From assembly GCA_964515295.1 (NCBI GenBank), contig CAZETW010000004.1, positions 4,994-68,993 on the forward strand: a stretch of 64,000 nucleotides of DNA. Direction: 5' to 3'. Shown here one piece after another: positions 12,688 to 59,788 of the stretch; within the stretch, counting starts at the first letter, position 1; every line of letters begins with the position of its first letter. Source of the DNA: an uncultured bacterium. GTDB lineage: Bacteria > Zhuqueibacterota > QNDG01 > CAYUAG01. The position numbers were made by a program, and so were the translations under genes. The notes beneath the pieces are model-generated. The model did no database searches, was not told the origin of the DNA, and worked only from the letters and a program-made list of their open reading frames with translations.

Positions 12688-12761
12688 GGGCCCATAGCTC
12701 AGTTGGTTAGAGCAACGGACTCATAATCCGTCGGTCGAAGGTTCGAGTCCTTCTGGGCCCA
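12688..12761 (+). tRNA. tRNA with anticodon CAU (elongator Met or lysidine-modified Ile2; 1:72 is a G-C pair so not an initiator)
   Basis: Hand-folded cloverleaf: 7-bp acceptor GGGCCCA/TGGGCCC, anticodon loop CTCATAA, T-arm GGTTCGAGTCC; no encoded CCA. Confidence 0.85.
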
Positions 12762-14066: not shown

Positions 14067-14073
14067 TGAAACA

Positions 14074-14476: not shown

Positions 14477-14501
14477 CAGTAATTTTGAGGTCTTTAATAA
14501 A

Positions 14502-36595: not shown

Positions 36596-36667
36596 TCCGG
36601 AGTAGCTCAATGGTAGAGCGGGTGGCTGTTAACCACTAGGTTGGGGGTTCAAGTCCCTCCTCCGGAG
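36596..36667 (+). tRNA. tRNA-Asn (anticodon GUU)
   Basis: Hand-folded cloverleaf: acceptor TCCGGAG/CTCCGGA, anticodon loop CTGTTAA, T-arm GGGGGTTCAAGTCCCTC. Confidence 0.85.
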
Positions 36668-36790: not shown

Positions 36791-38611
36791 ATGGTACTAG
36801 AAAAGTCAGGTAAATCATTCGTATTATTAATAATTCTTTTTGCATGCATCCCATCATTCCTTGAGGCACAGTCATTGGATCAACAGTTAAATATAGCAAG
36901 AAAACTGGAAAATCAAGGACGTATTCAGAGTGCTCTGGAACTGATGGAAACACTATATAAGAATCATCCTGAAAATATAGCTGTTTTCTCACGATATGCC
37001 AGTGTGCTGATGAAATCCCGTCATTACACTAAGCTTCTTTCTCTTATAAATGAAAAAGAAGAAAGAGGAAGGATTGATTTTGATAACAGCATATTGAAAG
37101 CAAGAGTCTTTTATCGTCAGGGCAGATACGACCAGGCAATGCAAACCTGGAATTCTATTTTAAGGGGATATCCGCAAAACAGAATTATGTATTATAAAGT
37201 TGCCTCCAGTATGATCAATGAACGACTATTAGAAGAGGCATTACAGGTTTACCTGGAGGGGAGAAAAACGTTGAATGACAATGATCTTTTCAGTTTAAAT
37301 ATTGTAAATGTTTATGAGGCCTTGTTAGAATTTGAAAAAGCAACCAAAGAGCTGTTACAATATTTAGAACATAATCCCAAACGATATGCTGTTGTGGAAG
37401 CAAAATTACACCGGTTTAAAGGTTCCGATCAGATTGTATCCACAGTTTCTGCTCTCCTTAAAAAAGCAATAAAAAAAAAGTCTCACAATAAACAATTGAA
37501 AGAATTATTGGTGAAATATTATATTGGAGCAGAATACTTTCAGGAGGGATGGGATGCAGCCCGAAAATTTTTTCCTTCTGATGAACAGGATAATGAAAAT
37601 ATACTGTTTTTATTTGCTGAACATGCTTATAAAGCAGGTTCATCCAGGATGGCGGAAAAGGCGTACAGAAAAATTTTACAGACTGATTCAATTTTTATTC
37701 CGGTTGGAAAAGTTTATTTTGGTCTGGCTCAGACCCTGGAAGTTCAGAAAAAATATGAAAAATCAATTCATTATTATGATCTGGCCTATAAAAATTTGAA
37801 AAATTTTTCCGCTGTTTTACAGTCAAGGTTGCAAAAGGCTCGTATTTTAAAAGACGCACTGAATGAGTTTGAAAAGGCAGAAAAAATGTACAGGACACTG
37901 ATCAATCAGCCTCTTAATCCACAGCAGCTGTATAATTGTTATTTTTCTTTGGGAGAATGTCTGATTGCTCAGGGAAAAATTAGCGAAGCTGAAAAAATTT
38001 ATTTAAAAACAGCTGATGAATTTTCTGAAGAAAAGAATACATACTGGATAAAAGCAATTGTATCATTGGGCAGGATGTTTTATTTCAAAGGAGAATTTGA
38101 TACATCACTAACCTATCTCAATCAGCTTTCCAGTACTGATATTAATGAGGAATATCTCAATGAAGAATCCCTGAATGACGGATTGGAATTAAGAATGCTG
38201 ATCAAACAAAATCTCAGAAATTCAGAGAAACCGTTAAGGCTTCTGGCACGGGCTGAATATCATGAGGAAAGGAAAGGATATGAAAAGGCCGTTGCGGTTC
38301 TTGATACTCTTATTGAAGGCTGTTCTGACAGTACTATGATCCGATACGGTTTATTTAAAAAAGGAACAGTTCTTATACGGTTACAGCAATATAAAGCAAG
38401 TATAAATGTTTTTAACGAATTTATAGAAAAATATCCTGCGGATCAATTGACTGATCAAGCTCTGGAAAGAACGGGCTGGGCATACCAAAAAGTCGGGAAT
38501 CCTGAAATAGCAGCTGCATACTATGAAAATCTTCTTACCAATTTCCCCCACAGCTTACTAAAGGAGGAGGTAAGAATGAGAATACGCAGTATAGAAGAAG
38601 AGGAAAAGTAA
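36791..38611 (+). CDS. Tetratricopeptide-repeat protein with signal peptide
   Basis: 606 aa; N-terminal signal, multiple TPR-like helical repeats. Confidence 0.7.
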   Translation: MVLEKSGKSFVLLIILFACIPSFLEAQSLDQQLNIARKLENQGRIQSALELMETLYKNHPENIAVFSRYASVLMKSRHYTKLLSLINEKEERGRIDFDNSILKARVFYRQGRYDQAMQTWNSILRGYPQNRIMYYKVASSMINERLLEEALQVYLEGRKTLNDNDLFSLNIVNVYEALLEFEKATKELLQYLEHNPKRYAVVEAKLHRFKGSDQIVSTVSALLKKAIKKKSHNKQLKELLVKYYIGAEYFQEGWDAARKFFPSDEQDNENILFLFAEHAYKAGSSRMAEKAYRKILQTDSIFIPVGKVYFGLAQTLEVQKKYEKSIHYYDLAYKNLKNFSAVLQSRLQKARILKDALNEFEKAEKMYRTLINQPLNPQQLYNCYFSLGECLIAQGKISEAEKIYLKTADEFSEEKNTYWIKAIVSLGRMFYFKGEFDTSLTYLNQLSSTDINEEYLNEESLNDGLELRMLIKQNLRNSEKPLRLLARAEYHEERKGYEKAVAVLDTLIEGCSDSTMIRYGLFKKGTVLIRLQQYKASINVFNEFIEKYPADQLTDQALERTGWAYQKVGNPEIAAAYYENLLTNFPHSLLKEEVRMRIRSIEEEEK

Positions 38612-39873
38612 TGATAAAAAATAAAATTAGTGTTATCATTTTATTGATAATTTGTTCGTCTCTGCGGGCTGAAAGTATTCTTATTCCCATGGATCTGGAA
38701 CAGAATAATCACCTTAAAGCGTATGGAGCTGCTTACTGGACTCTAAAACAGGGTATAGATGTACGCTGGCTTCTGAATTACAGGGGCGGTTCTTTTCTCA
38801 TAGAGTCGGTAGAAACTGTAAAACGCAGATGCAGCATACTTGGCGTTTCATTTGAAATCATTTCCGGATCTGCAGTTACTTCTATCCTGCATACAATTGA
38901 AAATAACAATATGGAGGTAATTCTTCTGGAAAAGGCGCCCTCTATTGCTGTATATGTACCGCCCAATCATGTGCCCTGGGATGATGCTGTTACGTTATCT
39001 CTCACCTATGCTGAAATACCTTATGATAAAGTCTGGGATCAGGAAATTCTGGAGGGGAATCTATCACAGTATGACTGGCTTCATCTTCACCATGAAGATT
39101 TTACAGGTCAGTATGGTAAATTTTATGGATCATATCGGAATGCACCATGGTATATACAACAGCAGCAGCTGTATGAAAAAGAGGCCAAACGACTTGGATT
39201 TTCCAAAGTATCCGAACTAAAACTTTCTGTGGCTTTGAATATTAAAGAGTATATCCGTAAAGGAGGTTTTCTTTTTGCTATGTGTTCTGCAACAGATTCT
39301 TATGATATTGCTCTGGCAGCTCAGAATACGGATATCTGCGATGTGGTTTTTGACGGAGATCCTCTGGATCCTCATTATAAAGATAAACTGGATTTTACCC
39401 AGTGTCTTGCCTTTGAAAACTTTGAGCTTATCACTCAGCCGACAATCTATGAATATTCAAATGTTGATACAACCCCCCTGGACCAGACTGCAGTACAGAC
39501 CGGAAAAGATGATTATTTTACTCTTTTTGAATTTTCTGCCAAATATGATCCTGTACCGACAATGTTAACTCAGAATCATGTTTCAGTTATTCATAATTTT
39601 ATGGGACAGACTACTGCCTATAATAAAAATGTTATTAAAAAAGAGGTGGTGATAATAGCAGAAAAAAAAGGGGCTAATGAAGTTAAATATATCCATGGAA
39701 ATCATGGAAAAGGTACTTTTACTTTTCTGGGAGGACATGATCCGGAGGATTACAGACACTTTGTAGGTGATCCGCCTACTGATCTTAATCTTCATAAAAA
39801 TTCTCCGGGATATAGATTGATCTTAAATAATATATTATTTCCGGCAGCGAAAAAGAAAAAACTGAAAACATAA
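38611..39873 (+). CDS. Secreted hypothetical protein (possible class I glutamine-amidotransferase-like/ThuA-like fold)
   Basis: 420 aa; signal peptide; GGFLFAMCSATDSYD motif resembles a nucleophile-elbow Cys; translationally coupled to upstream TPR gene (stop/start overlap). Confidence 0.45.
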   Translation: MIKNKISVIILLIICSSLRAESILIPMDLEQNNHLKAYGAAYWTLKQGIDVRWLLNYRGGSFLIESVETVKRRCSILGVSFEIISGSAVTSILHTIENNNMEVILLEKAPSIAVYVPPNHVPWDDAVTLSLTYAEIPYDKVWDQEILEGNLSQYDWLHLHHEDFTGQYGKFYGSYRNAPWYIQQQQLYEKEAKRLGFSKVSELKLSVALNIKEYIRKGGFLFAMCSATDSYDIALAAQNTDICDVVFDGDPLDPHYKDKLDFTQCLAFENFELITQPTIYEYSNVDTTPLDQTAVQTGKDDYFTLFEFSAKYDPVPTMLTQNHVSVIHNFMGQTTAYNKNVIKKEVVIIAEKKGANEVKYIHGNHGKGTFTFLGGHDPEDYRHFVGDPPTDLNLHKNSPGYRLILNNILFPAAKKKKLKT

Positions 39874-39911: not shown

Positions 39912-41294
39912 ATGTCAGATAAAAAATTAGATGAAATATATAAGCGGCTTTTCCGTATTGGGGCTGCAATTGAGAAAACAGGAGGAAACACACTGCACAG
40001 CGGGAACCTTTCTCTGCGCGATCCTGATGATCCGGATATATTTTATATTACGGCCAGTGGTTCACAATGCGGAGCTTTGAACCCTGCTGATATTGTTCAG
40101 CTTAGATTTTCCCGGAGGAGCAGCAATGATAACCGTGCGTCTACTGAAACTCCAACTCACAGAAAGGTACTTAATATAAAAGGAGTCAAGGCAGTAGTAC
40201 ACGCACATTGTTTTAACAGTACACTTATATCTTTTGATACTGGAGAGCAGCAGCTTTTTCTGCAGTATCTGGGTAAAGACCGAAAAGGAAGAGATGAATT
40301 TCTGTTCCTGCCTGTAGATCTTTATGGTTCTTTTTGCATTGGGAAAGTGCCAGTGAACAGTTACATTGAACCGGTAGGATCTGCAGAAATGGAGGAGAGA
40401 ATCCCTCACTATCTGGCTGAGAATACATGTACCATTGTTCAGACACATGGTCCCTTTATTAGGGAAGATTCGCCTGAGAAGGCATTTCATTTTCTCTCAA
40501 TACTGGACATTAGTGCAGAGATGGTACTCTGTCTCAGGCGCCGGGGTATAGATGTAATTAAGATCCAAAAAATATTAAAGTTTAAAGGCAGGGCAACATT
40601 TTTCCCCGTACAGCCTCATCGATTTCAGGATATTGACTTTACCTGCTGTGATATTAAAGAAAAGCCAGTTATTCAGGATTTCAAGCAAAGACTTATATAT
40701 AATTTTAATCATCGACTGAGCGGTTTTGCAACCGGGTCCATGAGTCTGAAAGTATCGGATACTGACATGATATACTGTCCTCTGTCTGCTCTTCCTGAAG
40801 GATTCAGTATTCCTTTGCTTAAAAAATCCATAAAGTCTGATTCAGAAGAAAATTTTGATCTAAGGATACATAAAATGATCTATCAGAATACTGATCAGAC
40901 CAGCTGCATGATTACAATCAGTCCCCGGGCAGTAGCTGAAGGAATGGCAGTTCTAGCTGAAAAATATGGTATAGAGGTCCTGTGCGGTAATGGAGCTATG
41001 ATCTCTTACACGAACAGAGGACATCCTGTAATTACTGCTGTTGATGCAGAAGCCAGGTACTGCAGTCCTGAACTGGGAGTGGTTGATATAACGCAGCTTT
41101 CTGATCTGAGGTCTGATAATCCTATTCTGGACATGCTGAGAGAGTATAAGGGGTGTTGTGTAGTGGCAAACTATGGTGTTATTTCTACCAGCCGGAACGG
41201 TCTGGAACAGGCTGCCTGTAAAGCTTTTTTGGCGGAGCGTATAGCTGGTTTCAGACAGGAAGCAGGGATCACAATCAGATCAATACAGCTGTAA
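39912..41294 (+). CDS. Tandem class II aldolase/adducin-fold protein (N-terminal domain intact, C-terminal domain degenerate)
   Basis: 460 aa; domain 1 has SGNLSLR, Glu-His (STETPTHR), VVHAHC and VQTHG metal-ligand motifs; domain 2 keeps the fold signature (GSMSLKV, ANYGVI) but lacks the His ligands. Confidence 0.6.
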   Translation: MSDKKLDEIYKRLFRIGAAIEKTGGNTLHSGNLSLRDPDDPDIFYITASGSQCGALNPADIVQLRFSRRSSNDNRASTETPTHRKVLNIKGVKAVVHAHCFNSTLISFDTGEQQLFLQYLGKDRKGRDEFLFLPVDLYGSFCIGKVPVNSYIEPVGSAEMEERIPHYLAENTCTIVQTHGPFIREDSPEKAFHFLSILDISAEMVLCLRRRGIDVIKIQKILKFKGRATFFPVQPHRFQDIDFTCCDIKEKPVIQDFKQRLIYNFNHRLSGFATGSMSLKVSDTDMIYCPLSALPEGFSIPLLKKSIKSDSEENFDLRIHKMIYQNTDQTSCMITISPRAVAEGMAVLAEKYGIEVLCGNGAMISYTNRGHPVITAVDAEARYCSPELGVVDITQLSDLRSDNPILDMLREYKGCCVVANYGVISTSRNGLEQAACKAFLAERIAGFRQEAGITIRSIQL

Positions 41295-41351
41295 ATTTAC
41301 ATTCATGTATTGATGTTATGTAATTCAAAGAACTTAAAGGAGGTAACAGAT

Positions 41352-41909
41352 ATGACTGATTTTAAGAAAATTCCAATCGACTCTGCTCACAGATTAATAA
41401 ATCATGGCCCCACTGTTCTAATTTCTACCAGGGATCAAGAAGGGAATTACAACCTTGCCCCCATAGCCTGGAACACACCGGCAGGAAAGAATCCCCCTAC
41501 ATTTCTGACAGTCATAGGGAAAAGCCATAAAACCAATGAAAACATAATAGAAACCAATGAATTTATAGTTTGTATACCTCATAAAAAGCAGACAGAAATG
41601 CTTCTCAAAACAGGTAAAATTTCCGGTTATGAAGTGAATAAATTTAATGAATTTAATATTGATACAATCAGGGCTGATAGGGTAGGAGCTCTGGTACCGG
41701 TTGACTGCATAGGCTACAGTGAATGTACGGTGCGAAAGGTGGTGAAGTTAGAAAAAGTAAATATATTTATTGCTTCAGTTATACAAGCCTGGGCACAAAA
41801 GGATGTTTTTACCGACAGATTATTAGTTGAAAAAGAGGCGGCAAAAACAATACATCATTTGGGTGGGCATCTATTTTCTGTTCCGGATTCAGATATTGTT
41901 AATCTGTAA
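41352..41909 (+). CDS. Flavin reductase-like (FMN-binding split-barrel) protein
   Basis: AGGAGG SD 9 nt upstream of this ATG; LINHGPTVLISTRDQEGNYNLAPIAW typical flavin reductase domain. Confidence 0.7.
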   Translation: MTDFKKIPIDSAHRLINHGPTVLISTRDQEGNYNLAPIAWNTPAGKNPPTFLTVIGKSHKTNENIIETNEFIVCIPHKKQTEMLLKTGKISGYEVNKFNEFNIDTIRADRVGALVPVDCIGYSECTVRKVVKLEKVNIFIASVIQAWAQKDVFTDRLLVEKEAAKTIHHLGGHLFSVPDSDIVNL

Positions 41910-41924
41910 ATGTAGTGACTTATA

Positions 41925-42332
41925 TTAAAATTGAAGGTCCATAGCCCAGGTGGGGCAGGCAGTAATACATAATTCACAGGCCAGACATTGCGTGTCATCA
42001 AATTCAATTTTTCTGTTTACAGGATTTACTTTTAAGGCATCAGTAGGGCATACTCCCACACATAAACCGCAATGGGTGCACCTTTTTTTATCACGTACAA
42101 CATCTTTTTGAAGCGGCTTAATACTGAGTCCCAGTTTTTTCAGATAATCAAGACCGGATTTATAATCATTATTATTACCTTTTATCTCAAGAACAAGCAC
42201 TCCTTCTTCCTTTGGAGTTATAGCTGCTTTTAAAATATTAAATTCCAGATTATAATCTTTTACCAGCTGACATGCTATGGGCTGATCAACTAATGTTGGC
42301 GGAAATTTTACAACTATGCGTTTTGTAATCAT
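41925..42332 (-). CDS. NIL-domain ferredoxin with two [4Fe-4S] clusters
   Basis: 135 aa; N-terminal NIL domain, C-terminal CTHCGLCVGVCP and CLACELCITACP cluster motifs. Confidence 0.8.
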   Translation of the reverse strand: MITKRIVVKFPPTLVDQPIACQLVKDYNLEFNILKAAITPKEEGVLVLEIKGNNNDYKSGLDYLKKLGLSIKPLQKDVVRDKKRCTHCGLCVGVCPTDALKVNPVNRKIEFDDTQCLACELCITACPTWAMDLQF

Positions 42333-42381
42333 TAAGAACCCTTTTATATTTTTATAAATAAATCTGTAAATATAATTTCAT

Positions 42382-43551
42382 TTACTCTTTTTCTGAACCA
42401 GGAATGTAAGCAACCGGATTGGTTAACAAAAACTCTCCCTTTTTTATCCATTCTTTTAAGGATTCGGCGATTTCCACTGCTTTAGGATAGCTTGATAACG
42501 ATGCTGTTTTTATTCTTTTTTTATTTATTGTTATTTCTCCTGATTTTAGTTCTGCGTATGATACTGTTCCCAAAATTTTGTTTTTCCCCTGTGGATAATC
42601 ACTCCCGTAGTCCACAACCGGTGCGTAGATATCTTCATCTCTGACTGCTGTATACCTGGCCATTTGTTCGTTAATTATTGGTATGGGAATACCGATGCTC
42701 ACCATTAAGGTTGCTCCGTATCCTGACATGGACAGTCCCACAAGCCAGGAAGGTTTCATTTTCTTTAAATTACCGATGACTGCCAAAGTACCTGCCGGAA
42801 CCCGTGGGACCTGGCTTTTTGTCCTGGGTACATCGGGTTTATGCTGGGTCCCGGGCCATGCAATGTAACCTCGGTCACCTCCCAGGAAAATTTTGGTTCC
42901 GATCCCTATAGTCTGATATAGGGGATCATTCAGCAGGGGAGAGAGCTGTCCTGCTGAACAATAGGTAGCATTATTCATATTCGGTTTCAGCATACCCATA
43001 TATGTATAAATATTCTTGTCTGTACGGTTTACTGCCACGTTATAATTCTGATATGCATTCCTGGGATTAAATAACACAGCATCATTGACATTTTTAATAT
43101 TAATAATTGTTTCATATTTTCTCCCGGGATAGCAGTCAGTTCCATAAGAGTATGCACGGAGTTCTATATCTTTACCTGAAACAAAATCTTCAATAACATG
43201 TCCGCCGCCATATCTGAACTCACCGGGATGTATTTTATTTTTCGGATCATCTTCAGTAAGCTGAGAACAGCCGAGTAAAATGTCTGCTGCAGCAAATCCG
43301 GTATAAGCAGGAACATTATTCAGATAGCAAATTCCTCCGCCCAGTTTAATTTTTGGTTTTGACTGTGCAATGTTAAAATAAGCTCCACTGGAACACATGG
43401 GTCCGAATGTACCTGTAGTAACAACATCCACCTCCTCTGCTGCTGCCTTTGTACCGTTTTCCTTTACAATAGAAATCATTTCCTCAGCAGTAACAACAAC
43501 AGCTTCTTTTTTTTTGATTTTCTGGTTGATTTCTGCAATAGTCTTTGCCAT
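42382..43551 (-). CDS. DUF39 family protein (L-aspartate-semialdehyde sulfurtransferase-like; homocysteine biosynthesis), lacking CBS domains
   Basis: 389 aa; DUF39 family recalled from sequence features; paired with NIL-ferredoxin as in methanogen MA1821/MA1822. Confidence 0.6.
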   Translation of the reverse strand: MAKTIAEINQKIKKKEAVVVTAEEMISIVKENGTKAAAEEVDVVTTGTFGPMCSSGAYFNIAQSKPKIKLGGGICYLNNVPAYTGFAAADILLGCSQLTEDDPKNKIHPGEFRYGGGHVIEDFVSGKDIELRAYSYGTDCYPGRKYETIINIKNVNDAVLFNPRNAYQNYNVAVNRTDKNIYTYMGMLKPNMNNATYCSAGQLSPLLNDPLYQTIGIGTKIFLGGDRGYIAWPGTQHKPDVPRTKSQVPRVPAGTLAVIGNLKKMKPSWLVGLSMSGYGATLMVSIGIPIPIINEQMARYTAVRDEDIYAPVVDYGSDYPQGKNKILGTVSYAELKSGEITINKKRIKTASLSSYPKAVEIAESLKEWIKKGEFLLTNPVAYIPGSEKE

Positions 43552-43725
43552 GTGTTTTTCCTTTTTTAATTATACAGTCTTTGTTTCATGTATACTTGAG
43601 ATTAGTAAATTGCATAAAAATTAACTAATTAAAAATTAATTGTCAAGTGTTTAATCTTTTTGTAAATTAAAAATTCTGATAATAATAAAAAAAGAGGTTG
43701 TTTCAGTTAATTATTTATGATCCGA

Positions 43726-46700
43726 CTATAGAACCTGTTTACGCAGAGTCTGCTGCATTCTTTTAATTCTTTCAAACAGGTCTCTTCTTTCCGGTGTTCG
43801 TTTTAATACTTCATTCCATTGAAAAACAGCCTTTTTATATTCCCCCCTGTTTGCATAAATTACTCCCAGATTTTCAGCAACTGTAAGATTATCAGGCTGT
43901 ACACGACGGACTTTATCATAGTAATATTCTGATTTATCTAAATTACCGATCTTGAAATAAGCATCTCCAAGATAATGCAGGGCATTTAAATTTGTGGGAT
44001 CTTCATTCAGAACTTTTTTAATCGCAATGATAGCTTTTTCATATGATCCCTGTTTATAAAACCATTTTCCGGATTTTAAAAAGCGCTGAATCCTTTTTTC
44101 TCTGATCCTTTTTTCTTCTTCCGGGTTTGGTTTTTTTTCTTCAGGTACTCTTTTTCTTTTTTGGACATCCAGGCCTTCTGACATCTTAAGAAAACTGGTT
44201 TCTTCCTCCTCTTGTTTATCTTTACCATATTCAATGTCTTCATGTTGTTCTTCATCCAGCAATTCATCTGCTGTAAAAGAAGCTATCTCTTCTTCTACAT
44301 CCTGTTCGTCAAAGACATCAGAGTAATATATATCTTTATGATCAAGTGTTTCTTCAATTTCCTCAAGTTCATCAATTTCTTCTTCACTTTCTTGCGGAAT
44401 TTCTTTTACAATATCCTGTTTTTGTTCTTCTTTTTCTTCAAGAGATTCAGCCGGCGCTTCCTCTTCTGATTCAGGAGTGATAATGTCTTCATCTTCAGAA
44501 CTGCCTATAAAATCATTTAAAATATGATCGGTTTTTTCGTGTATTTCACTTTCATGTTCAGAAATAACTTCTTCAGGTTCTTCAGAGATAACCTCTTCGA
44601 AATCTTTTTCTTCTTCTTTGATTACTTTTCTGTCTTCATCCTCAACGTCAACAGACTGCTCAACGATTGTAGGTTTATTAACAATTTTTCCGTCCAAGGT
44701 AACAAAAGGAGTACCTGGTTTCTTTAGAGCTTTGCGTCCGCCTTTTTCAATAAAAGCCAAACGTAATTCTTTGGTATTTAATTTGCTTTTTACTAATTCA
44801 TCGTAAATTCTTTTTTCATCAATTTCTACATTATCATATTTATCACTCTTTAATTCCTCACTAATTCTTTTTGCTCCATAATCAGGATTATTTTTAATAA
44901 TGTCGATAATTTTGGCTCTGTCTTCAATGCTTATATGTTTATCTTCAATTTTTGTAATTTTCCTTCCGTCATATAATCCTTCTTTTCCCTTTTTATTGTA
45001 TTTCTTTCTGTATTTATAATATGTTGAGGTAGAAACATTTTCCCTTTTACATGCTTCTTTAACACTTAATCCTTTTTTATCAACTAATTTCATCAACCGT
45101 AATCTGTGATTAAATAATACATCCTCAGCTTTCAATTTTTCTCTTATAGCCACCAGGGTAATATCATCAGTTTGCGCAAAACCTTCGGAAAAGATGATTA
45201 TTTCATCTCTGATCTTATTTACAAATGGTTCTACATTTAAGTCTCCATATTCTCTTATGACCGAAAGAAACCGTTCATCACCAAAGCGTTCTCTGTTGTG
45301 ATTCATGGCTTCGGTAATACCATCAGTATAGACGATCAGCGAATCTTCGGGTCTTAAATGCAGAGTGTCAGATTCAATTGTTTTATTAAACAGAGAATCA
45401 TCGGGCAGTTTAATTCCTATGGGAAATCCTTTCGGATTCAGGTAGTAACTTTTTTTGGTAGATCCTCTATAGAGAATCATGGGATTATGTCCGGCACTGG
45501 CGTAATTTATAGATCTTTTCTTGGAATCAAGAATTACATAAAATATAGTAACAAACATTCCGCGTTTCATATCTTTCATGACAAAACTGTTTACTTTAGC
45601 CAGTACATCAGCAGCATTTTTATTGCCGCGCGCTTCAGTACGAAGTGCTGTTCGGATCATGGTCATTACCAGGGAACCAGGAACTCCTTTACCTGAAACG
45701 TCTGCAACCACAATACCCAGAGTATCATTATCTACCTCCACAAAATCAAAGTAATCTCCGCCCACTTCTTTTGCTGCTTCATAGTATGTAGATATCTCAT
45801 ATCCTTCAATATCCGGAAAAGAAGCCGGGAGCAGTGTTTGCTGTATATCCTGGGCAACCTGTACTTCTTTTTGCAGTCTTTCCTGTTCTGCTAAATGTTC
45901 CTGAGTTTCACGAAATTTTTCTGTAATATCATTAAAAGCTTGAGCTATTTCGCCCACTTCATCTGAATTATCGAATTCCATCACATCTTCTGCTTCTCCC
46001 CGTCCCAAAGCTTTAACCCAGTGAGATAATTTTTTAAAAGGACTCATAGTAGTATATACAAGTACAAAAACTCCTATGCAGCCGCTTACTAATATAACCA
46101 AAGATCTCCAGAAAATACTTTTTCTCTTTTGTGCAACGTTACCGTCAACAAAGCTTTTATTCAACATGATATGGACTGAGCCTAAAATATACCTGTTATC
46201 ATCAATTTCAAATTCAGCGGGTTTATTTATGTCATATACACTGCCCACACCAGCATAGTCATATACATATAAACTATCAGATTTTTTTCTGTATTTTCGT
46301 GGGAGTGAAAATGGTTTTAACAGGTTCTCCATATTCACTGCACCCTGAATACTGCCAGTGCTGTCTACAATAATTATTTCTGAAACCAGTGGAGTATGAT
46401 TATGCTGTAATTCAGCTGAAATTCTTGCTAATTCCCAGGTTTCTTCATTAGCAAGAAATTCGGCGGAATTCTGCACTACAGTTGAAGCCAGTTTTTGTCC
46501 TTCTTCAAGATAGGTGTTAAATACTTTTTTCCCTTGATAAATATAATTCCAGATCGAGAATATTAGTATTAAAAAGGTTAATATACCAGAGGCAATCAAC
46601 GAATATCGGGTTTTCATGGAAAAGCTCAACTCTGGTATGGAAAATTTTTTGGAAACATCTAATTCACGAATTTTTGTCAGACGTAATTCATTTCCCTCTA

Positions 46701-47082
46701 CTGTTTTTCTATAGTCGATCTCATCAATGACCTTGCGCATTATAAATATTCCCAAACCGCCTTTTTTTCCGATATTCACATATCTGTCAAGGTCAGGATT
46801 TTTTACTTTTCTGGGATCAAAAGTTTTCCCCTGATCAATGAGAGAAACAGTAACATTCTGTTCTCTTATTATCATCCTGACTGTTATAAAACCTTCCCAG
46901 TCACGATAAGCATGACGGATTATATTTGTACCTGCTTCATCTATGGCCATTTTAAAGGCATTGATGATGTTTTCACTGACACCATATTTTCTGCCTACTT
47001 TGGTGATAAAATCACGCATTTCGCCCAGATTTCCAATATCAGCGGGTACTTTTAATTCTTTTTTCTTTACTTTTTTAAACAT
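43726..47082 (-). CDS. Multidomain signalling protein: RsbW-like GHKL serine kinase + 2 TM with extracytoplasmic sensor + HAMP + PP2C (RsbU/SpoIIE) phosphatase + transposase-type HTH + acidic tract + C-terminal TPRs
   Basis: 1118 aa; DEAGTNIIRHAY and GGLGIFIMRKVIDEI (HATPase_c_2); two TM helices; GDYFDF...TDGITEA...DDITLVAIR (PP2C-SIG); LSVKEACKRENVSTSTYYKYRKKY and PDYGAKRISEEL (IS481/IS3 OrfA-like HTH); E/D-rich region; 3 TPRs. Confidence 0.8.
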   Translation of the reverse strand: MFKKVKKKELKVPADIGNLGEMRDFITKVGRKYGVSENIINAFKMAIDEAGTNIIRHAYRDWEGFITVRMIIREQNVTVSLIDQGKTFDPRKVKNPDLDRYVNIGKKGGLGIFIMRKVIDEIDYRKTVEGNELRLTKIRELDVSKKFSIPELSFSMKTRYSLIASGILTFLILIFSIWNYIYQGKKVFNTYLEEGQKLASTVVQNSAEFLANEETWELARISAELQHNHTPLVSEIIIVDSTGSIQGAVNMENLLKPFSLPRKYRKKSDSLYVYDYAGVGSVYDINKPAEFEIDDNRYILGSVHIMLNKSFVDGNVAQKRKSIFWRSLVILVSGCIGVFVLVYTTMSPFKKLSHWVKALGRGEAEDVMEFDNSDEVGEIAQAFNDITEKFRETQEHLAEQERLQKEVQVAQDIQQTLLPASFPDIEGYEISTYYEAAKEVGGDYFDFVEVDNDTLGIVVADVSGKGVPGSLVMTMIRTALRTEARGNKNAADVLAKVNSFVMKDMKRGMFVTIFYVILDSKKRSINYASAGHNPMILYRGSTKKSYYLNPKGFPIGIKLPDDSLFNKTIESDTLHLRPEDSLIVYTDGITEAMNHNRERFGDERFLSVIREYGDLNVEPFVNKIRDEIIIFSEGFAQTDDITLVAIREKLKAEDVLFNHRLRLMKLVDKKGLSVKEACKRENVSTSTYYKYRKKYNKKGKEGLYDGRKITKIEDKHISIEDRAKIIDIIKNNPDYGAKRISEELKSDKYDNVEIDEKRIYDELVKSKLNTKELRLAFIEKGGRKALKKPGTPFVTLDGKIVNKPTIVEQSVDVEDEDRKVIKEEEKDFEEVISEEPEEVISEHESEIHEKTDHILNDFIGSSEDEDIITPESEEEAPAESLEEKEEQKQDIVKEIPQESEEEIDELEEIEETLDHKDIYYSDVFDEQDVEEEIASFTADELLDEEQHEDIEYGKDKQEEEETSFLKMSEGLDVQKRKRVPEEKKPNPEEEKRIREKRIQRFLKSGKWFYKQGSYEKAIIAIKKVLNEDPTNLNALHYLGDAYFKIGNLDKSEYYYDKVRRVQPDNLTVAENLGVIYANRGEYKKAVFQWNEVLKRTPERRDLFERIKRMQQTLRKQVL

Positions 47083-47097
47083 AAAATTTATTTATAA

Positions 47098-49008
47098 TTA
47101 TTTATTTTTACGGAATGATTTAATTTTGTTTTTCGCTCCTTCAATTGCCTTTAATAATTTAATATTATATGGATCCAATTGCAAGGCTTCTTCCCATCGC
47201 TCTAAAGCTTTTTTATAATGACCCTGTCTGTAAAGAATAATACCCTGATTAAACATTGTTCGTACTTCTTCTGTCATTTCCTGAGTTGCACCTTTAGCAT
47301 GGGCAAGAGCAGTTCTGTAGTAATTTTTTGCCTCACCGTGATCGGGCTGAATGTCCAGGGCTTTCCTGAAATATTGTACAGCAGAAGTGTAATTTTCTTC
47401 ATCAAAATATTCTTTACCTTTCTGGAAATTAGTGGCGAAATCTATACTCTTATTAAGACTATTAATCTGGTTTACGACTCTTCTATAAATTCTTTCATTA
47501 TCCCGGGATTGTTGCTTGGCCTGATTCAGTATATCATATGCTCTGGATACTTCTCCCTGGTTTATTAATTTTTGTGCTCTAGTAAGTGATATATTGATCT
47601 GGTTTACTAAATTATCCTCAGCATTTTTTATGTATTTTTTCAGTTTGGTATTCTGGGGATCTCTTTCCAGGCCTTCTTCCCATTTTTCTATTGCTTCACG
47701 ATAATTTCTATTTTCCAGCGCTTCAATACCTTCAGTTAATTTTTTATGAACAAATGTGCTGTCTTTTCTGTTACTTACTTTTACTCTCTCCTTTTCAAGA
47801 AGCTGATTTTGCTCTCTTTCTTCGGCTAAACGCTGTCTTTCTATTGCTTCCTGTAATAATTCTTGTGCTTTTTTGTTGTCTTCATCTATTTTAAGTATTT
47901 TTGAAAATTCAACTCTGGCATTATAGAAATCACCTTTTTCAAGATAAGATCTACCGTTTTGAAGACTTTCATTGATTTCTCTTAATCTTTCAGCCTGTAC
48001 TCTCTCATTAAACCTTCTTTGTATCTCTAAACGTCGTTTTTCTTCTAAAAGTTCCTTTTGTTCCTCAATAGTCTTTCCAAAATATAATTTCAAGGAAAAC
48101 AGATTACTAACAGGGAAATATTTTGCATCTCCTATAGATTTAATACCATAATCAATTTGCAGATTTTTAAAAAGCAGCCCCACACCTGCGGTTAACTGTT
48201 CTTTCTCATATCCTCCTCGTATAAAGACCATGTTGCCTAATCCCACCTCCATTCCGAAATGATATTCATTTTCTTTGAATTCAGAATGATCAATATCAGC
48301 CATTAGTAATAAATAGTATTTATTGCTGAAAGTGAATATTTTTGCCATTCCGGCTTTAATTTTATAGGGAAGTATATCCTGCTCAGTGTCCATTTTTAAA
48401 CTCGGTTGTAAGAGATTATACATAGTACATCCGAAATGAAGATCATTTAATATGTTTCTGCTGGTTATCCCATAGTGAATTCCGGCATCCAGACCAAATC
48501 CGTTAGCAGAATACTCTCCTAACTCATCTCTGTAAGCATTACCGTTTATACCTACTGAAAACCCTTTAAAGAGTGTAAGGGCATATGATAGGGTTAATTT
48601 AGCTTTCCAGAAGTTAAATGTTCCTCTGTCAACGGGAATATTATTTACATCGTCATAAAAATTTATATCATCAACCCCAAATCGTGCTATTCCAAAACCG
48701 AATGTTCCAATATTTAAAGTCGGATGAATATATCCGATTTGATGATACTGTACTCCTTCAAATAAAGTAAAGAGAGAGAACCCAAGCTGTTTTTGCTGTA
48801 CTACATTCATGCCAGCCGGATTCCAGGCAAAGGCATAGGCATCATTTGGATATGCTGCTGCAGCGTTCCCCATACTTAATTGCTTTGCTCCGGAACCAAT
48901 TCGCAAAAACAAAGATTCTGCTCCTGCATTACCTTGTTTCTGTTGAGCAAAACATGTACCGGCTATTATAAAAATTATTAGAAAAAATTTTATAATTTTA
49001 CTGTTCAT
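47098..49008 (-). CDS. Outer-membrane FadL/PorV-like beta-barrel fused to C-terminal TPR/coiled-coil domain
   Basis: 636 aa; signal peptide; N-terminal motif GSGAKQLSMGNAAAAYPNDAYAFAWNPAGM characteristic of FadL/PorV superfamily; alternating-hydrophobic beta strands; C-terminal half helical TPR-like. Confidence 0.6.
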   Translation of the reverse strand: MNSKIIKFFLIIFIIAGTCFAQQKQGNAGAESLFLRIGSGAKQLSMGNAAAAYPNDAYAFAWNPAGMNVVQQKQLGFSLFTLFEGVQYHQIGYIHPTLNIGTFGFGIARFGVDDINFYDDVNNIPVDRGTFNFWKAKLTLSYALTLFKGFSVGINGNAYRDELGEYSANGFGLDAGIHYGITSRNILNDLHFGCTMYNLLQPSLKMDTEQDILPYKIKAGMAKIFTFSNKYYLLLMADIDHSEFKENEYHFGMEVGLGNMVFIRGGYEKEQLTAGVGLLFKNLQIDYGIKSIGDAKYFPVSNLFSLKLYFGKTIEEQKELLEEKRRLEIQRRFNERVQAERLREINESLQNGRSYLEKGDFYNARVEFSKILKIDEDNKKAQELLQEAIERQRLAEEREQNQLLEKERVKVSNRKDSTFVHKKLTEGIEALENRNYREAIEKWEEGLERDPQNTKLKKYIKNAEDNLVNQINISLTRAQKLINQGEVSRAYDILNQAKQQSRDNERIYRRVVNQINSLNKSIDFATNFQKGKEYFDEENYTSAVQYFRKALDIQPDHGEAKNYYRTALAHAKGATQEMTEEVRTMFNQGIILYRQGHYKKALERWEEALQLDPYNIKLLKAIEGAKNKIKSFRKNK

Positions 49009-52000
49009 CTATTTTACCACAGCAATTTTTGTTTTTACTATATTGTCGTCTGTATCCATAACCAATATATATACACCGTTAAGTACTGTGTTTCCATTAT
49101 CATTGGTGCCGTTCCATTCAACCTGATTACTCCCCCTTGAATGAAGTCCTTTTCTTCCTTCCGGATCAGTACTGCTGAAAGATTCTGACCAGACTAATTC
49201 TCCGATTAAATTATAAATGCTGAAATTTACATTTGTATCCTTGTCTAAATAGTAAACAATGGTTGTAGTTTTTTTACCCGGTGAACCGAATGGATTGGGA
49301 AAATTCAGTAGATATGCTTTATCGTCTGTTCCCACATCTTCACTTGATATCACCTGTTTTTGCCAGTTGCTCTTTAACTCAAATCTATCTCCTGAAGGAG
49401 ATAACACCGGCAGTGAAACATAAGGGACATACTCATCAACAGCTGTAATATAGGTGCTGTCAGGCATTTCCAGCATAAAATTCACTGTCTTTTCTGTTGT
49501 ATGCATGTCTGCAAGGAGAGCGATTTTCAGTGTATCCTGAGTCTTAATCGGGTTCATATGATCAATTAAAATGTTAACCGGATTTTCGGCAGGTATTTGT
49601 GATGAAGACAGTGTAGCCAGACAGCTGTCTTTATTATAATAATATCTTCCATTCTTCTTTATTAATTTGCATAGTTTGATTTTCTTATAAATAGAAGAAG
49701 GATTTAATGGCTGGTGAGAAAAGTCTAGAAGATTAAATTTTATTTTTGTCAGTAATACTCCATTCGCACCTGCTTCACCTCTGTTGATCATTTCAAATCC
49801 TGTTAGCCAGACATTATTTTGCCCGCTTATTACTTGACTTGAAATAGAATCCGGCTGGTCTAATTCTGTAACGGAAAGCCAGGTTCCCACTGTTGTTACC
49901 CCGATATCTGCACTTACTTTACTTGCATATGCTTCTTCAGATGTATTCTGATCCCAGGGAATTTTTGAAATATAAGCTGAGATAGTGGCAGTTTCGCCTG
50001 TGGAGTAGGGAGGTGCTTTAATCATCCAGTTTGTTTTTTCCTGTGTCGCATAATGAACCGGAGATTCTTTTGTTGTATATCCTTCAGGTAATTGTTCCAG
50101 AGTAATCATAGCAGTACCAAGAGTATCAGCTTCTCCTTTGTTTTCTATCTCTGCATACAGGATAAATTCCTGAGAGGGAGAAACAGATTTGTCATCAATG
50201 TTAAGGTTCAATGCCAGATCAGCTTTTTTTACAGTTTGTATCTCAATACCTTTCTGTTCTGCAGATATTATTACATCCTCTTGCTGAAGTGCATCGTAGC
50301 CGGATGCATTTACATAAATAGTTCTTTTATCTGTTGCTCCTTTGGGCGCTCTGATTTGCCAGGTTACTTCATTTGATATCACTTTTTTATCCAGGTTATC
50401 CGAGGTGGTATATCCGGTTGGCAATGTTATGGAGGCAGTGATATCCCTTACATAATTCCAGGTCAGACTTGCTCTTACTACAAAATACTGATCGGATGAT
50501 ACTTTTTGATTAACTGCTCCGGGCGGTGAGGCTATACCCAATGAACTGGTAAGAAAACTTTTATGAGTTATTACAGATATTTTTTCTGTCTTTTTTTCAA
50601 TTTTTGCAACTTGTCCGGTGTTTCTGGCTAAAGGAGGTTTATACAGAGTAACATTTATTGTTTGCCAGTCTGTGGCAATATTGGGCGATTTGATTTCCCA
50701 GGTTGCAGGTGAATTAAGAGTAATGGAATTATTAACTGATCCGCTGAGTGTATAGGGAGAAGGAAGAGTTATTCTTATTTTTCCGGTAGTATCAATAGCA
50801 CCAGATCCATGATTTTCCAGATGTGCGGTGAGGATAAAAACCTGGTTGGTTGTAAATTCTCCTATGGGATTGCTTAATTTCAGTTTTATTGAGAGGTCTG
50901 CCGGTTTCTGAATATAAGCAAAAGCTACAGGATCTAAAGCCGGACCAACAGGTACCTCTGAATCATCCTTTTTGGCACTTGTTATAGAAGCAGTAAATTG
51001 TTCTCCGGAAATATTTTCCACTGCTGATGCGGTAAGGTAAAATATTACAGAATCTCTTTGGGATGGTGACAGAGAAAGTATGGTTAAATCTGAATTTTCT
51101 ATATTTGATATTTCGCTTTCCAAATGAACATTAATATTCTTGACTGCATGACCTAATCCGTTTTCTACTGATACAATAACTTTAAATTCCTGGTTTGTAT
51201 CCAAATACGCATTGCCTCCCTCGGTTGTATTATAAGCATCGATCACAGTTGATACAATTCTAAAGGCCGGATTGGACTGCACTGATATTAAGGCTGATGC
51301 ATTATTCTGTTTTATGTTTCCGGTGTTTTTTTCAACTCCCTGGATATTGGTTTTAACTTCTACCTCTCCGCCGTATAGTCCGGTTAGTTTAACTTTGTAT
51401 ACTAATGTATCCCTTGTTCCGCTTTTCAGGCTGATATTTTTGGTGGTACATTCTGTAATATAATCTGTGAGTTTTAGATCTTCATGCCAGAAACTGATAT
51501 TTGATTTCAGGGTATCTATCTGAATTTCTGCATAATAATCTATAGGGGCCTGACTTTGCCCGTTAGCAAGTACAACTTTAACAAACCAGGGTTCAGTCTG
51601 ACCTCCCATTACTTTATTTGTGGAAGTGATAATTTTTTCAATGGACAGAGTTCCTGGCTGTTGTACATGTACTTTGGTTGTGTCATCAACAGGATTTTTA
51701 CTTGTCAGAGAATCATTCTTATTATCAGTCCATCCGCCGCCGCTTACTGTAAAGATTTCATTGTACAGATAGGTTTGAAAGGCATTACCTGTTACTGTGA
51801 TAACAGAAGTTTCACCGCCCTCAAGAGGATCAACAGGGATACGGGTAGGGAAATTAAACCAGGGATGTTCTGAAGTTAAATGTAATCCGATGTCATGTAA
51901 TCCATCTCCGCCTGTATTGGCTATTTTAATGTTCATGTCAAATTCCTGATTGATATTAACATAGGGTGCATTGGGAGCCATATTTGTAAGTTCGAGAATT

Positions 52001-58837: not shown

Positions 58838-59788
58838 TTATTTGAATTGTTTTAATGCTACCCCGATAGATGATGTAAATTTTTCAGGATTTTCTCTGAA
58901 TTTTTCATTATTTGAAATTGATTGTGAAATTGCAATTTTAGAAAATGGATTCAGTATTTCAATGGGCACTTGTATATTTTTAGTCAGTTGATTCTGGAAA
59001 TCATAAATTAAATCACGTCCGGTTAAATAAATTTTTTCAAAATCTTCAATTTTATTGACTATTTTATGACCAAAAATTAATCTTTTTAATTCTTTTAATA
59101 ATAAATCGCTTATTTCTGAAACACTTACTATGGTTGAATTATCTTTATTTTTTAATGAAATATTATATGATAAATAGAATTCTTCATCCTTAATAAAAAT
59201 AATACAAATATATTCTCTTTGTAAATCAATTAAAATATTGATCCCTTCACTTAGTTGGTAATTTTCAACTAATGAGCGGATATTTGAAAAAACATCAACG
59301 TCTATATCCTTTAAAATCATGCCGGTCTTATGTATGAGTTTTCTGATCATAGACAAAAATTTTTTTCTAAGTAAGACAACAACATATAAAGGATTACCAG
59401 AAAATGTCTGGAACGGCAACCGCTGATAATCAACAATATAGTCATCTAAAGAAGAAATAACAAACTGTTGTGATTCCCAATAGAGTTGCTGTTGTATAAA
59501 ATTTTTATCAAGACCAAGGGCAATAGGGATTCGTTTGATCAAAACACAACCGCTATATATTGAAACACCTACTTCTTTACCAGCTCCTAAATCTTTATAC
59601 AGATCTTTTAAAATAACACTCTGCGTGTCCAGAAAATTATTTTGAGACATCATTGTTTCCATATCAAAAGATTGTAATAGATGTTTGGAAACAAGATTCT
59701 GGACACTCTTATTTTTCATCAAAACAAGGCACATTTGATCTGGGTATATAGATAACCCAATATAAGGATTTTCAGAGTGCTTTTTCAC
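58838..59788 (-). CDS. PilM-like actin-fold protein (type IV pilus/competence assembly)
   Basis: 316 aa; N-terminal IGLSIYPDQMCLVLM and C-terminal NPF...SSIGVALKQF resemble PilM termini. Confidence 0.5.
   Translation of the reverse strand: MKKHSENPYIGLSIYPDQMCLVLMKNKSVQNLVSKHLLQSFDMETMMSQNNFLDTQSVILKDLYKDLGAGKEVGVSIYSGCVLIKRIPIALGLDKNFIQQQLYWESQQFVISSLDDYIVDYQRLPFQTFSGNPLYVVVLLRKKFLSMIRKLIHKTGMILKDIDVDVFSNIRSLVENYQLSEGINILIDLQREYICIIFIKDEEFYLSYNISLKNKDNSTIVSVSEISDLLLKELKRLIFGHKIVNKIEDFEKIYLTGRDLIYDFQNQLTKNIQVPIEILNPFSKIAISQSISNNEKFRENPEKFTSSIGVALKQFK

What the first reader, a model, noticed from the sequence alone, without database searches (positions are those of the whole stretch)
41925..43551. 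Methanogen-type homocysteine biosynthesis pair (DUF39 sulfurtransferase-like + NIL-ferredoxin) in a bacterium, with DUF39 lacking CBS domains
In Methanosarcina the DUF39-CBS protein (MA1821) with the NIL-domain 2x[4Fe-4S] ferredoxin (MA1822) converts aspartate semialdehyde plus sulfide to homocysteine, an O-acetyl/succinyl-homoserine-independent route. Here a 389-aa protein, which I recognise as DUF39-like without the C-terminal CBS pair, lies immediately upstream on the same strand of a NIL-ferredoxin with two canonical CxxCxxCxxxCP motifs. This suggests an anaerobic, sulfide-dependent methionine pathway in this organism. DUF39 assignment is from memory of the family and needs a profile search.
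Basis: partly seen in the sequence, partly recalled or inferred. Interest (0 to 1): 0.6.

Follow-up and report, generated by a model that had tools for sequence, protein, structure and literature searches.

The report
Ordinary bacterial homocysteine synthesis gene pair
The two genes are a standard bacterial copy of the known DUF39 plus NIL-ferredoxin enzyme that makes the methionine precursor homocysteine from aspartate semialdehyde and sulfide. The annotation is correct, but it is not a new discovery.

Summary

- **DUF39 gene:** ORF 42382..43551 (-) encodes 389 aa and matches Pfam PF01837 (HcyBio/DUF39) over its full length at 502 bits. It has no CBS domain.
- **NIL-ferredoxin gene:** 49 bp downstream on the same strand, ORF 41925..42332 (-) encodes 135 aa. 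It has a NIL domain and two CxxCxxCxxxCP motifs.
- **Subfamily:** The DUF39 protein carries two invariant cysteines, Cys53 (GPMCSSG) and Cys140 (GTDCYP). [quoted passage not shown] It scores far below the cut-off for the coenzyme-M synthase (MMP16) branch.

The functional reading is therefore well supported, but the implied novelty is not.

- CBS-less proteins of about 400 aa are the normal bacterial form. At least 8000 sequence clusters exist across many phyla, and some are already named "homocysteine biosynthesis protein".
- A NIL-ferredoxin gene follows directly in 26 of 53 related genomic loci.
- Published genetics showed a CBS-less DUF39 (Dde_3007) is required for homocysteine synthesis in Desulfovibrio alaskensis, and that DUF39, NIL/ferredoxin and COG2122 are required in D. 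vulgaris.

Two questions stay open. No COG2122 gene lies in the 64-kb window, and the rest of the genome could not be checked for canonical met genes. Verdict: already known, low interest.

The parts
42382..43551 (-). Catalytic subunit of L-aspartate-semialdehyde sulfurtransferase (DUF39 / COG1900a / PF01837 HcyBio). 389 aa, CBS-less bacterial form. Conserved Cys53 and Cys140.
   Evidence: Pfam PF01837 at 502 bits over the full profile. Cys53 and Cys140 are invariant in 30 of 30 homologues from several phyla. 50% identity over residues 3-383 to P0245, a 504-aa DUF39 protein with a CBS pair. MMP16 model below its cut-off. AF2 model with pLDDT 93.7.
41925..42332 (-). NIL-domain 2x[4Fe-4S] ferredoxin subunit (MA1822 / DvMF_0262 type). 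Presumed electron donor and possible methionine sensor.
   Evidence: Pfam NIL at 55.5 bits plus Fer4 families. Eight Cys and N32/I33 are invariant in 28 of 28 orthologues. The N-terminal part matches the solved C-terminal domain of MetN (2qrr, E 6.9e-4) and the C-terminal part matches polyferredoxins. The gene lies directly downstream of DUF39 in 26 of 53 related loci.
42333..42381 (-). 49-bp spacer between the two genes. It suggests co-transcription.
   Evidence: Read from the sequence. No terminator-like site in the spacer. An AAGGG Shine-Dalgarno-like sequence lies before the second ATG.
43639..43647 (-). Conserved CTTGACAAT box, a putative -35 element of the pair's own promoter, about 90 nt upstream of the DUF39 start. 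The -10 element is not clearly identified.
   Evidence: This is the only long conserved block in the alignment of upstream regions from the window, L002 and L003. The consensus scan found no partner hexamer that met its threshold, so this part is tentative.
43552..43638 (-). 5' leader with no recognisable riboswitch or attenuator.
   Evidence: No Rfam hit at gathering or E<=1 thresholds on this strand. The fold is no more stable than shuffled sequence, z = -1.48.

Best explanation

The proposed mechanism is taken from the archaeal and Desulfovibrio literature. The DUF39 subunit takes sulfide-derived sulfur onto a conserved cysteine as a persulfide; here that would be Cys53, with Cys140 as an auxiliary. 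It transfers the sulfur to the aldehyde carbon of aspartate semialdehyde. The NIL-ferredoxin subunit then supplies two electrons through its two [4Fe-4S] clusters to reduce the intermediate to homocysteine. A methionine synthase encoded elsewhere methylates homocysteine to methionine. Homoserine and its activated esters are bypassed.

The enzyme lacks the CBS pair, so SAM sensing as proposed for the archaeal enzyme is absent. The NIL domain, which is related to the methionine-binding regulatory domain of MetN, is the only candidate allosteric module.

Shown here: domain identities, subfamily motifs, conserved gene pairing, and an intact, strongly conserved sequence. Inferred: substrate, chemistry, electron flow and feedback regulation.
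For: - **Family match:** full-length PF01837 at 502 bits, and NIL plus Fer4.
- **Conserved cysteines:** Cys53 (GPMCSSG) and Cys140 (GTDCYP) are invariant in 30 of 30 homologues from Chloroflexota, Planctomycetia, Omnitrophota, Latescibacterota, Thermodesulfobacteriota, Bacillota, Actinomycetota and a Thermoplasmata archaeon.
- **Match to the archaeal type:** the same motifs occur in P0245, which has the archaeal-type CBS pair and is 50% identical. Its two cysteines are 77 residues apart, the same spacing as Cys54 and Cys131 in MA1821 (PMC12068725). MMP16-like and other distant DUF39 subfamilies lack both motifs.
- **Not the coenzyme-M branch:** the MMP16 model TIGR03287 scores 139 bits against a cut-off of 364.
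- **Gene pairing:** NIL-Fd lies directly downstream in 26 of 53 loci from several phyla.
- **Existing annotation:** close homologues are named 'homocysteine biosynthesis protein' or 'L-aspartate semialdehyde sulfurtransferase' by NCBI and JGI.
- **Genetics in bacteria:** CBS-less Dde_3007 is required for homocysteine synthesis (PMC4045070). DUF39, NIL/ferredoxin and COG2122 are required in D. vulgaris, and homoserine is not an intermediate (PMC5764234).
- **Role of the cysteines and domains:** Cys54 is essential and Cys131 is auxiliary, with proposed roles for NIL and CBS (PMC12068725).
- **NIL domain:** it matches MetN structure 2qrr.
Against: - No direct sequence comparison with MA1821, MJ0100, Dde_3007 or DvMF_1464 was possible, because those sequences could not be retrieved. 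The link rests on the Pfam family, motifs, cysteine spacing and architecture.
- No COG2122/UPF0280 gene is in the window (tblastn E>3). That gene follows NIL-Fd in about 19 related loci and is required in D. vulgaris.
- No asd, metE/metH or other methionine genes are nearby.
- No methionine- or SAM-responsive RNA leader is present.
- The biochemistry of the family has not been reconstituted with purified components in any paper I could read.
- Kuehl et al. 2014 stated that the family has no conserved cysteines, which conflicts with my alignments and with later work.
Confidence: 0.85

Rival explanations
1. The pair is a genuine L-ASST but is redundant in this organism. A canonical homoserine-based route (MetX/MetA with MetY/MetB/MetC) encoded elsewhere would be the main source of homocysteine. 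The pair would then serve only under high-sulfide anoxic conditions or as a backup.
For: Only 64 kb of the genome was visible. M. acetivorans itself has redundant routes, and D. vulgaris may have a minor alternative route (PMC5764234). No methionine genes of any kind are in the window, so nothing ties the pair to being the sole route.
Against: In the organisms studied so far, DUF39 and NIL-Fd typically occur where canonical genes are missing (PMC4045070, PMC5764234). The pair is under strong conservation, at 83% identity to the nearest genomes and 69 invariant residues across phyla.
Confidence: 0.2
2. The DUF39 protein is an aldehyde sulfurtransferase for a different thiol. An example would be sulfoacetaldehyde to coenzyme M, as MMP16/ComF does, or an unknown thiol cofactor rather than homocysteine.
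For: The COG1900 family includes paralogues with other substrates, and L-ASST may partly substitute for MMP16 (PMC12068725). Substrate specificity cannot be read from sequence.
Against: TIGR03287 scores far below its cut-off (139 against 364). There is no ferredoxin insertion in the domain. MMP16-like representatives lack both conserved Cys motifs that this protein has. The NIL-ferredoxin partner is the hallmark of the homocysteine enzyme, and no coenzyme-M genes are nearby.
Confidence: 0.04
3. The adjacency is incidental. The NIL-ferredoxin would serve another redox or regulatory role unrelated to the DUF39 protein.
For: In Thermodesulfobacteriota and Latescibacterota loci the two genes are not adjacent.
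Against: NIL-Fd lies directly downstream in 26 of 53 loci from at least five phyla, with gaps of about 50-250 bp. Both genes give the same methionine-rescued phenotype in D. vulgaris even though they are unlinked there (PMC5764234).
Confidence: 0.02

Closest known systems
Desulfovibrio DUF39 proteins Dde_3007 (D. alaskensis G20), DvMF_1464 and DVU2938 (D. vulgaris), with NIL/ferredoxin DvMF_0262
   Same: Bacterial, with a DUF39 domain only and no CBS pair (stated for Dde_3007 in PMC4045070). They work with a separate small NIL and 2x[4Fe-4S] protein. Genetics shows they are required for homocysteine and methionine synthesis (PMC4045070, PMC5764234). Thermodesulfobacteriota homologues fetched here are 57-60% identical to the window protein and share Cys53 and Cys140.
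   Different: In D. vulgaris the two genes are unlinked, whereas here they are adjacent. In D. vulgaris a COG2122 protein is also required, and none is visible in this window. The Desulfovibrio sequences themselves were not compared directly.
Dehalococcoides DET0921-DET0919 cluster (DUF39, NIL-Fd, COG2122)
   Same: Same gene order, DUF39 then NIL-Fd, on one strand. Dehalococcoidia and Chloroflexota homologues are 66-69% identical for DUF39 and 48-52% identical for NIL-Fd. The DUF39 protein is CBS-less and about 401 aa.
   Different: In those loci a third gene follows immediately. It is a UPF0280/COG2122 gene matching NCBIfam NF003323 at 322 bits. Here a convergent flavin-reductase gene follows instead.
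Archaeal L-ASST: Methanosarcina acetivorans MA1821/MA1822 and Methanocaldococcus jannaschii MJ0100
   Same: Same DUF39 catalytic domain with the two conserved cysteines, and the same NIL-ferredoxin partner. P0245, a representative of the CBS-bearing form, is 50% identical across the whole domain.
   Different: The archaeal subunit carries a C-terminal CBS pair and is about 500 aa; the CBS pair is proposed to sense SAM. The window protein stops right after the DUF39 domain. It also has two short bacterial-type insertions, at about residues 100-108 and 240-253.
MMP16 / ComF coenzyme M synthase (COG1900d, TIGR03287)
   Same: Same Pfam family, PF01837. The proposed chemistry, aldehyde to thiol, is analogous (PMC12068725).
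   Different: MMP16 has a ferredoxin domain inserted in the DUF39 domain and different conserved cysteines. The window protein has no insertion, scores 139 bits against a cut-off of 364, and has the L-ASST cysteine motifs that MMP16-like representatives lack.

Membership tests
L-ASST catalytic subunit (COG1900a / PF01837 HcyBio) | Full-length DUF39/HcyBio domain above Pfam's gathering score | tested here: met
   502.1 bits against a cut-off of 26.2, profile positions 1-349 of 349
L-ASST catalytic subunit (COG1900a / PF01837 HcyBio) | Conserved cysteine equivalent to MA1821 Cys54, which is essential in vivo | tested here: met
   Cys53 in GPMCSSG is invariant in 30 of 30 and 29 of 29 sequences. 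It aligns to Cys58 of the CBS-bearing P0245. The mapping to MA1821 is by position and by the 77-residue spacing reported in PMC12068725, not by direct alignment.
L-ASST catalytic subunit (COG1900a / PF01837 HcyBio) | Second conserved cysteine, equivalent to MA1821 Cys131 | tested here: met
   Cys140 in GTDCYP is invariant in 30 of 30 sequences. It aligns to Cys135 of P0245, and 135-58 = 77 = 131-54.
L-ASST catalytic subunit (COG1900a / PF01837 HcyBio) | Partner NIL-ferredoxin gene | tested here: met
   Present 49 bp downstream. The same arrangement occurs in 26 of 53 related loci.
L-ASST catalytic subunit (COG1900a / PF01837 HcyBio) | C-terminal CBS pair. This is a feature of the archaeal form only and does not define the family. 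| tested here: not met
   No CBS hit. All complete bacterial homologues are 387-424 aa. Dde_3007, which is functional, also lacks it (PMC4045070).
L-ASST catalytic subunit (COG1900a / PF01837 HcyBio) | Accompanying COG2122/UPF0280 protein, which is required in D. vulgaris | tested here: inconclusive
   No homologue in the 64-kb window (tblastn E>3; no ApbE-like Pfam hit). The rest of the genome was not available.
L-ASST catalytic subunit (COG1900a / PF01837 HcyBio) | Enzymatic conversion of aspartate semialdehyde plus sulfide to homocysteine | not testable with these tools
   Requires genetics or biochemistry.
L-ASST catalytic subunit (COG1900a / PF01837 HcyBio) | Genome lacks canonical homoserine-activation and sulfhydrylation genes. 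This is typical context, not a strict criterion. | not testable with these tools
   The window holds none, but the whole MAG could not be fetched.
NIL-ferredoxin subunit (MA1822 / DvMF_0262 type) | N-terminal NIL domain followed by two CxxCxxCxxxCP [4Fe-4S] motifs in a protein of about 135 aa | tested here: met
   NIL at 55.5 bits, residues 5-71. Fer4 at residues 79-101 and a second stretch. Eight Cys are invariant in 28 of 28 orthologues.
MMP16 / ComF coenzyme M synthase (TIGR03287) | Score above the TIGR03287 cut-off, with a ferredoxin domain inserted in the DUF39 domain | tested here: not met
   139.4 bits against a cut-off of 363.95, with only profile positions 1-275 of 391 matched. No Fer4 hit in the 389-aa protein.

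The most novel reading that the evidence does not exclude
This uncultured lineage may run a minimal, two-component L-ASST. Its nearest named relatives are candidate division KSB1. The enzyme would work without a COG2122/UPF0280 helper and without a CBS sensor, so the NIL domain would be the only feedback sensor (for methionine). The window and its two closest relatives show no COG2122 gene next to the pair. In Dehalococcoidia, Bacillota and Thermoplasmata loci that gene follows directly.
Probability: 0.15. Interest if true: 0.25.

Novelty: already known. Interest (0 to 1): 0.1.

Why it matters
The value is practical rather than conceptual. Recognising the pair stops automated metabolic reconstruction from calling this uncultured bacterium a methionine auxotroph. 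It also points to an anoxic, sulfide-containing habitat.

The result shows that the bacterial, CBS-less, NIL-Fd-linked form is by far the most common version of the enzyme in sequence databases. Such pairs should therefore not be flagged as unusual in future scans.

One gap applies to the whole family and not to this locus in particular. No solved structure resembles the DUF39 fold.

Tried and rejected
1. **Riboswitch or leader RNA upstream of the pair:** No Rfam hit at gathering or E<=1 thresholds. The only hit, SNORA5 at E 0.008, lies inside the CDS on the opposite strand and is taken as chance. The leader fold has z = -1.48. Rejected.
2. **Functional link to the convergent flavin reductase (41310..41909) or to the class II aldolase-like gene:** These neighbours recur only in the same-species contig L001 and the 83% relative L002, and in no other locus. 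This is lineage synteny, not a functional link.
3. **First AlphaFold run:** With 29 close homologues it gave pLDDT 47 and was discarded. A second run with diverse representatives gave pLDDT 93.7.
4. **Fold searches:**
   - The afdb50 library was unavailable, so no structural link to named UniProt entries could be made.
   - Foldseek against the PDB found nothing with E<=0.001.
   - The fold searches therefore gave no mechanistic lead.
5. **Sequence search of the PDB with the DUF39 protein:** No hits.
6. **Literature:**
   - A search for 'MA1821' returned only DOI-string artefacts.
   - Rauch 2014 and Rauch & Perona 2016 are not held, so their claims are cited only through PMC5764234 and PMC12068725.
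7. **Source organism:**
   - The TopA look-up by exact sequence found no record.
   - The nearest genomes are labelled only 'uncultured bacterium'.
   - The nearest named TopA relative is a candidate division KSB1 bacterium at 59% identity.
   - The phylum therefore remains uncertain.

Full report
**Observation.** ORF 42382..43551 on the minus strand encodes 389 aa. After a 49-bp spacer, ORF 41925..42332 on the same strand encodes 135 aa.

The 389-aa protein matches Pfam PF01837 (HcyBio, formerly DUF39) with E 8.9e-151 and 502 bits, covering all 349 profile positions. It matches nothing else, so it has no CBS pair.

The 135-aa protein matches the NIL domain (55.5 bits, residues 5-71) and several 4Fe-4S families. 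Its two CxxCxxCxxxCP motifs are at C85/88/91/95 and C116/119/122/126. They are visible in the translation and invariant in 28 of 28 orthologues.

No terminator-like site lies between the genes. Upstream is a 174-bp intergenic region after a 1118-aa gene encoding HATPase_c_2, HAMP, SpoIIE, HTH and TPR domains. Downstream is a convergent flavin-reductase gene. The pair is therefore a self-contained two-gene unit.

**Setting.** The window is ordinary bacterial chromosome. It carries MnmE, YidC, RnpA, LptF/LptG, S21, MutS2, DnaG, RNase P RNA class A, RecJ, IlvE, NusB, SecA, TopA, XerC-like, HprK, MlaD, ThiL, FtsE/X, RNase R, Pta, CoaD, DnaJ and GrpE.

GC content is uniform at about 36% and does not change across the pair. 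No metA/metX/metB/metY, asd, metE/metH or ApbE/COG2122-like gene is present in the 64 kb.

The organism is uncultured and unclassified. The same proteins occur on an NCBI contig of 73 kb and on a Logan contig from SRR7048220. The nearest genomes (83% and 82% for DUF39) are labelled only 'uncultured bacterium'. The nearest named TopA relative is a candidate division KSB1 bacterium at 59% identity.

**Subfamily.** PF01837 contains several functionally distinct branches (PMC12068725). I aligned the window protein with 29 complete homologues from genomes of:
- Chloroflexota/Dehalococcoidia
- Planctomycetia
- Omnitrophota
- Aerophobetes
- Latescibacterota
- Thermodesulfobacteriota
- Bacillota
- Actinomycetota
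- a Thermoplasmata archaeon

Sixty-nine residues are invariant. Exactly two of them are cysteines: Cys53 in GPMCSSG and Cys140 in GTDCYP.

A scan of 1.84 billion 50%-identity representatives found 952 related clusters, 145 of them at E<=1e-30. The entire CBS-less bacterial group collapses into essentially one representative, P0244 (406 aa, 62% identity).

The next representative, P0245, is 504 aa and has DUF39 plus two CBS domains, which is the archaeal architecture. It is 50% identical to the window protein over residues 3-383 and carries the same two motifs, at Cys58 and Cys135. That spacing of 77 equals the spacing between Cys54 and Cys131 of M. acetivorans MA1821. Those are the two near-universally conserved cysteines of the L-ASST (COG1900a) subfamily, and Cys54 is essential in vivo (PMC12068725).

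Representatives with a ferredoxin inserted in the domain (MMP16-like, P0319 and P0348) and other distant branches lack both motifs. The NCBIfam MMP16 model scores only 139 bits against a cut-off of 364. The protein is therefore an L-ASST-type DUF39, not a coenzyme-M synthase type.

Compared with P0245, it has two short insertions, at about residues 100-108 and 240-253. The bacterial group shares these.

**Is the arrangement unusual? No.**
- A search of 5.8 billion clustered proteins hit the ceiling of 8000 scored candidates, and all of them matched at E<=1e-10.
- The best 120 are all 388-417 aa, carry PF01837 as their only domain, and are 67-95% identical.
- Those with a named source organism come from Neomarinimicrobiota, KSB1, Chloroflexota, Latescibacterota, Deltaproteobacteria, Nitrospirota and NPL-UPA2.
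- Several are already named 'homocysteine biosynthesis protein' or 'L-aspartate semialdehyde sulfurtransferase'.
- All complete orthologues in 53 GTDB genome loci are 387-424 aa, so none has a CBS pair.
- A NIL-ferredoxin gene lies directly downstream in 26 of those 53 loci, from Chloroflexota, Planctomycetia, Bacillota and Actinomycetota.
- It lies elsewhere in most Thermodesulfobacteriota and Latescibacterota loci. This matches the unlinked DvMF_1464 and DvMF_0262 of D. vulgaris (PMC5764234).

**Published knowledge.**
- **Kuehl et al. 2014 (PMC4045070):** The DUF39 protein Dde_3007 is required for homocysteine synthesis in Desulfovibrio alaskensis. The paper names DET0921 and MJ0100 as orthologues. 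It states explicitly that the CBS domain of MJ0100 is absent from Dde_3007.
- **Price et al. [quoted passage not shown] Methionine rescues the mutants, and homoserine is not an intermediate. Dehalococcoides appears to use the same pathway, encoded by DET0921:DET0919. The paper also summarises the archaeal work: MA1821/MA1822 genetics, aspartate semialdehyde plus sulfide as substrates, and a persulfide on a conserved cysteine.
- **The 2025 PLoS Genetics paper (PMC12068725):** It uses the name L-ASST. It reports that Cys54 is essential and Cys131 is dispensable. It proposes that the NIL domain senses methionine and the CBS pair senses SAM.

A bacterial, CBS-less DUF39 paired with a NIL-ferredoxin is thus the published, genetically validated bacterial form of the pathway.

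**Mechanism.** My best explanation follows that literature. Sulfur is loaded as a persulfide on the DUF39 subunit, on Cys53 with Cys140 as an auxiliary. It attacks the aldehyde of aspartate semialdehyde. The two [4Fe-4S] clusters of the NIL-ferredoxin deliver the two electrons needed to give homocysteine.

The N-terminal domain of the small subunit matches the solved C-terminal regulatory domain of the methionine importer MetN (2qrr, E 6.9e-4). This fits a role in methionine feedback. With no CBS pair, SAM sensing is not expected.

These steps are inferred, not shown. What is shown is family and subfamily membership, conserved motifs, conserved pairing and strong purifying conservation.

**Regulation.** Regulation appears simple.
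- A CTTGACAAT box about 90 nt upstream of the start is the only long conserved block among the window, L002 and L003 upstream regions.
- There is no riboswitch or attenuator.

**Structure.** With a diverse alignment, AlphaFold2 gives a confident model, with pLDDT 93.7 and pTM 0.92.
- No solved structure shares the fold.
- The sequence search of the PDB finds nothing.
- Foldseek finds nothing at E<=0.001.

This gap applies to the whole family and is not a peculiarity of this locus.

**Open points.**
1. **COG2122.** In about 19 related loci a 240-aa UPF0280/COG2122 gene (NF003323, 322 bits) follows NIL-Fd. These loci are from Dehalococcoidia, Bacillota, Thermoplasmata and others. The window has no homologue, and neither do the flanks of the two nearest relatives. 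Whether the genome has one elsewhere is unknown.
2. **Canonical pathways.** Their presence or absence in the rest of the genome could not be tested, so the pair may be the sole route or a redundant one.
3. **Reference sequences.** The named experimental proteins could not be retrieved for direct alignment.

**Verdict.** The feature is an ordinary, already-known bacterial homocysteine-biosynthesis gene pair. Interest is low.

Noticed in passing
window 49009..55098 (-): A 2029-aa ORF with no Pfam hit at all. It heads a same-strand run with a 636-aa TPR protein (47098..49008) and the 1118-aa HATPase_c_2/HAMP/SpoIIE/HTH/TPR protein (43726..47082). The run is also present on L001, and part of it on L002.
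   Followed up: no
window 43726..47082 (-): An unusual multidomain regulator. In one 1118-aa protein it combines an RsbW-like anti-sigma kinase domain, HAMP, a PP2C/SpoIIE phosphatase, a transposase-like HTH, a long acidic low-complexity linker and C-terminal TPR repeats. It is 84% identical in L002.
   Followed up: partly
window 39912..41294 (+): A 460-aa protein with a class II aldolase/adducin domain at residues 12-205 and a second weaker stretch. This looks like a duplicated or extended aldolase-II fold with weak MtnB-like scores. It is conserved at 64% in L002 but is not linked to the DUF39 pair in other lineages.
   Followed up: partly
window 38611..39873 (+): A 420-aa protein with a hydrophobic, signal-like N-terminus. 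It has no Pfam or NCBIfam hit and no homologue in any fetched locus.
   Followed up: no
window 17724..21101 (+): SecA is unusually long at 1125 aa. The SecA_DEAD match spans residues 6-551 for a 290-position profile, with the preprotein-binding domain at 376-507. This suggests an extra insertion of roughly 150 aa or more in NBD1.
   Followed up: no
window 57500..58777 (-) and 59810..61558 (-): Two proteins of 425 and 582 aa have no Pfam hit. They flank a weak PilM-like gene (58838..59788).
   Followed up: no
window 14073..14481 (+): Bacterial RNase P RNA class A at 259 bits. The longest RecJ ORF (starting at 14424) overlaps its 3' end, so the true RecJ start is probably further downstream. There are tRNAs at 12688..12761 and 36596..36667.
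   Followed up: no
L010 5203..8358, and similar Dehalococcoidia loci: In Chloroflexota, a Thi4 thiazole synthase gene sits directly upstream of DUF39, NIL-Fd and COG2122. This forms a four-gene sulfur-chemistry cluster. A 2026 preprint (10.1101/2025.09.23.678117) also lists HcyBio among genes clustered with Thi4.
   Followed up: partly
P0246 and P0252 (protein representatives): Some DUF39 proteins of the L-ASST motif type carry a C-terminally fused 2x[4Fe-4S] domain without a NIL domain. This is a fused architecture distinct from both the archaeal CBS form and the two-gene bacterial form.
   Followed up: no
PMC4045070 compared: Kuehl et al. 2014 state that Dde_3007 and its relatives have no conserved cysteines. 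In my alignments two cysteines are invariant across all L-ASST-type homologues, which agrees with later archaeal work.
   Followed up: yes
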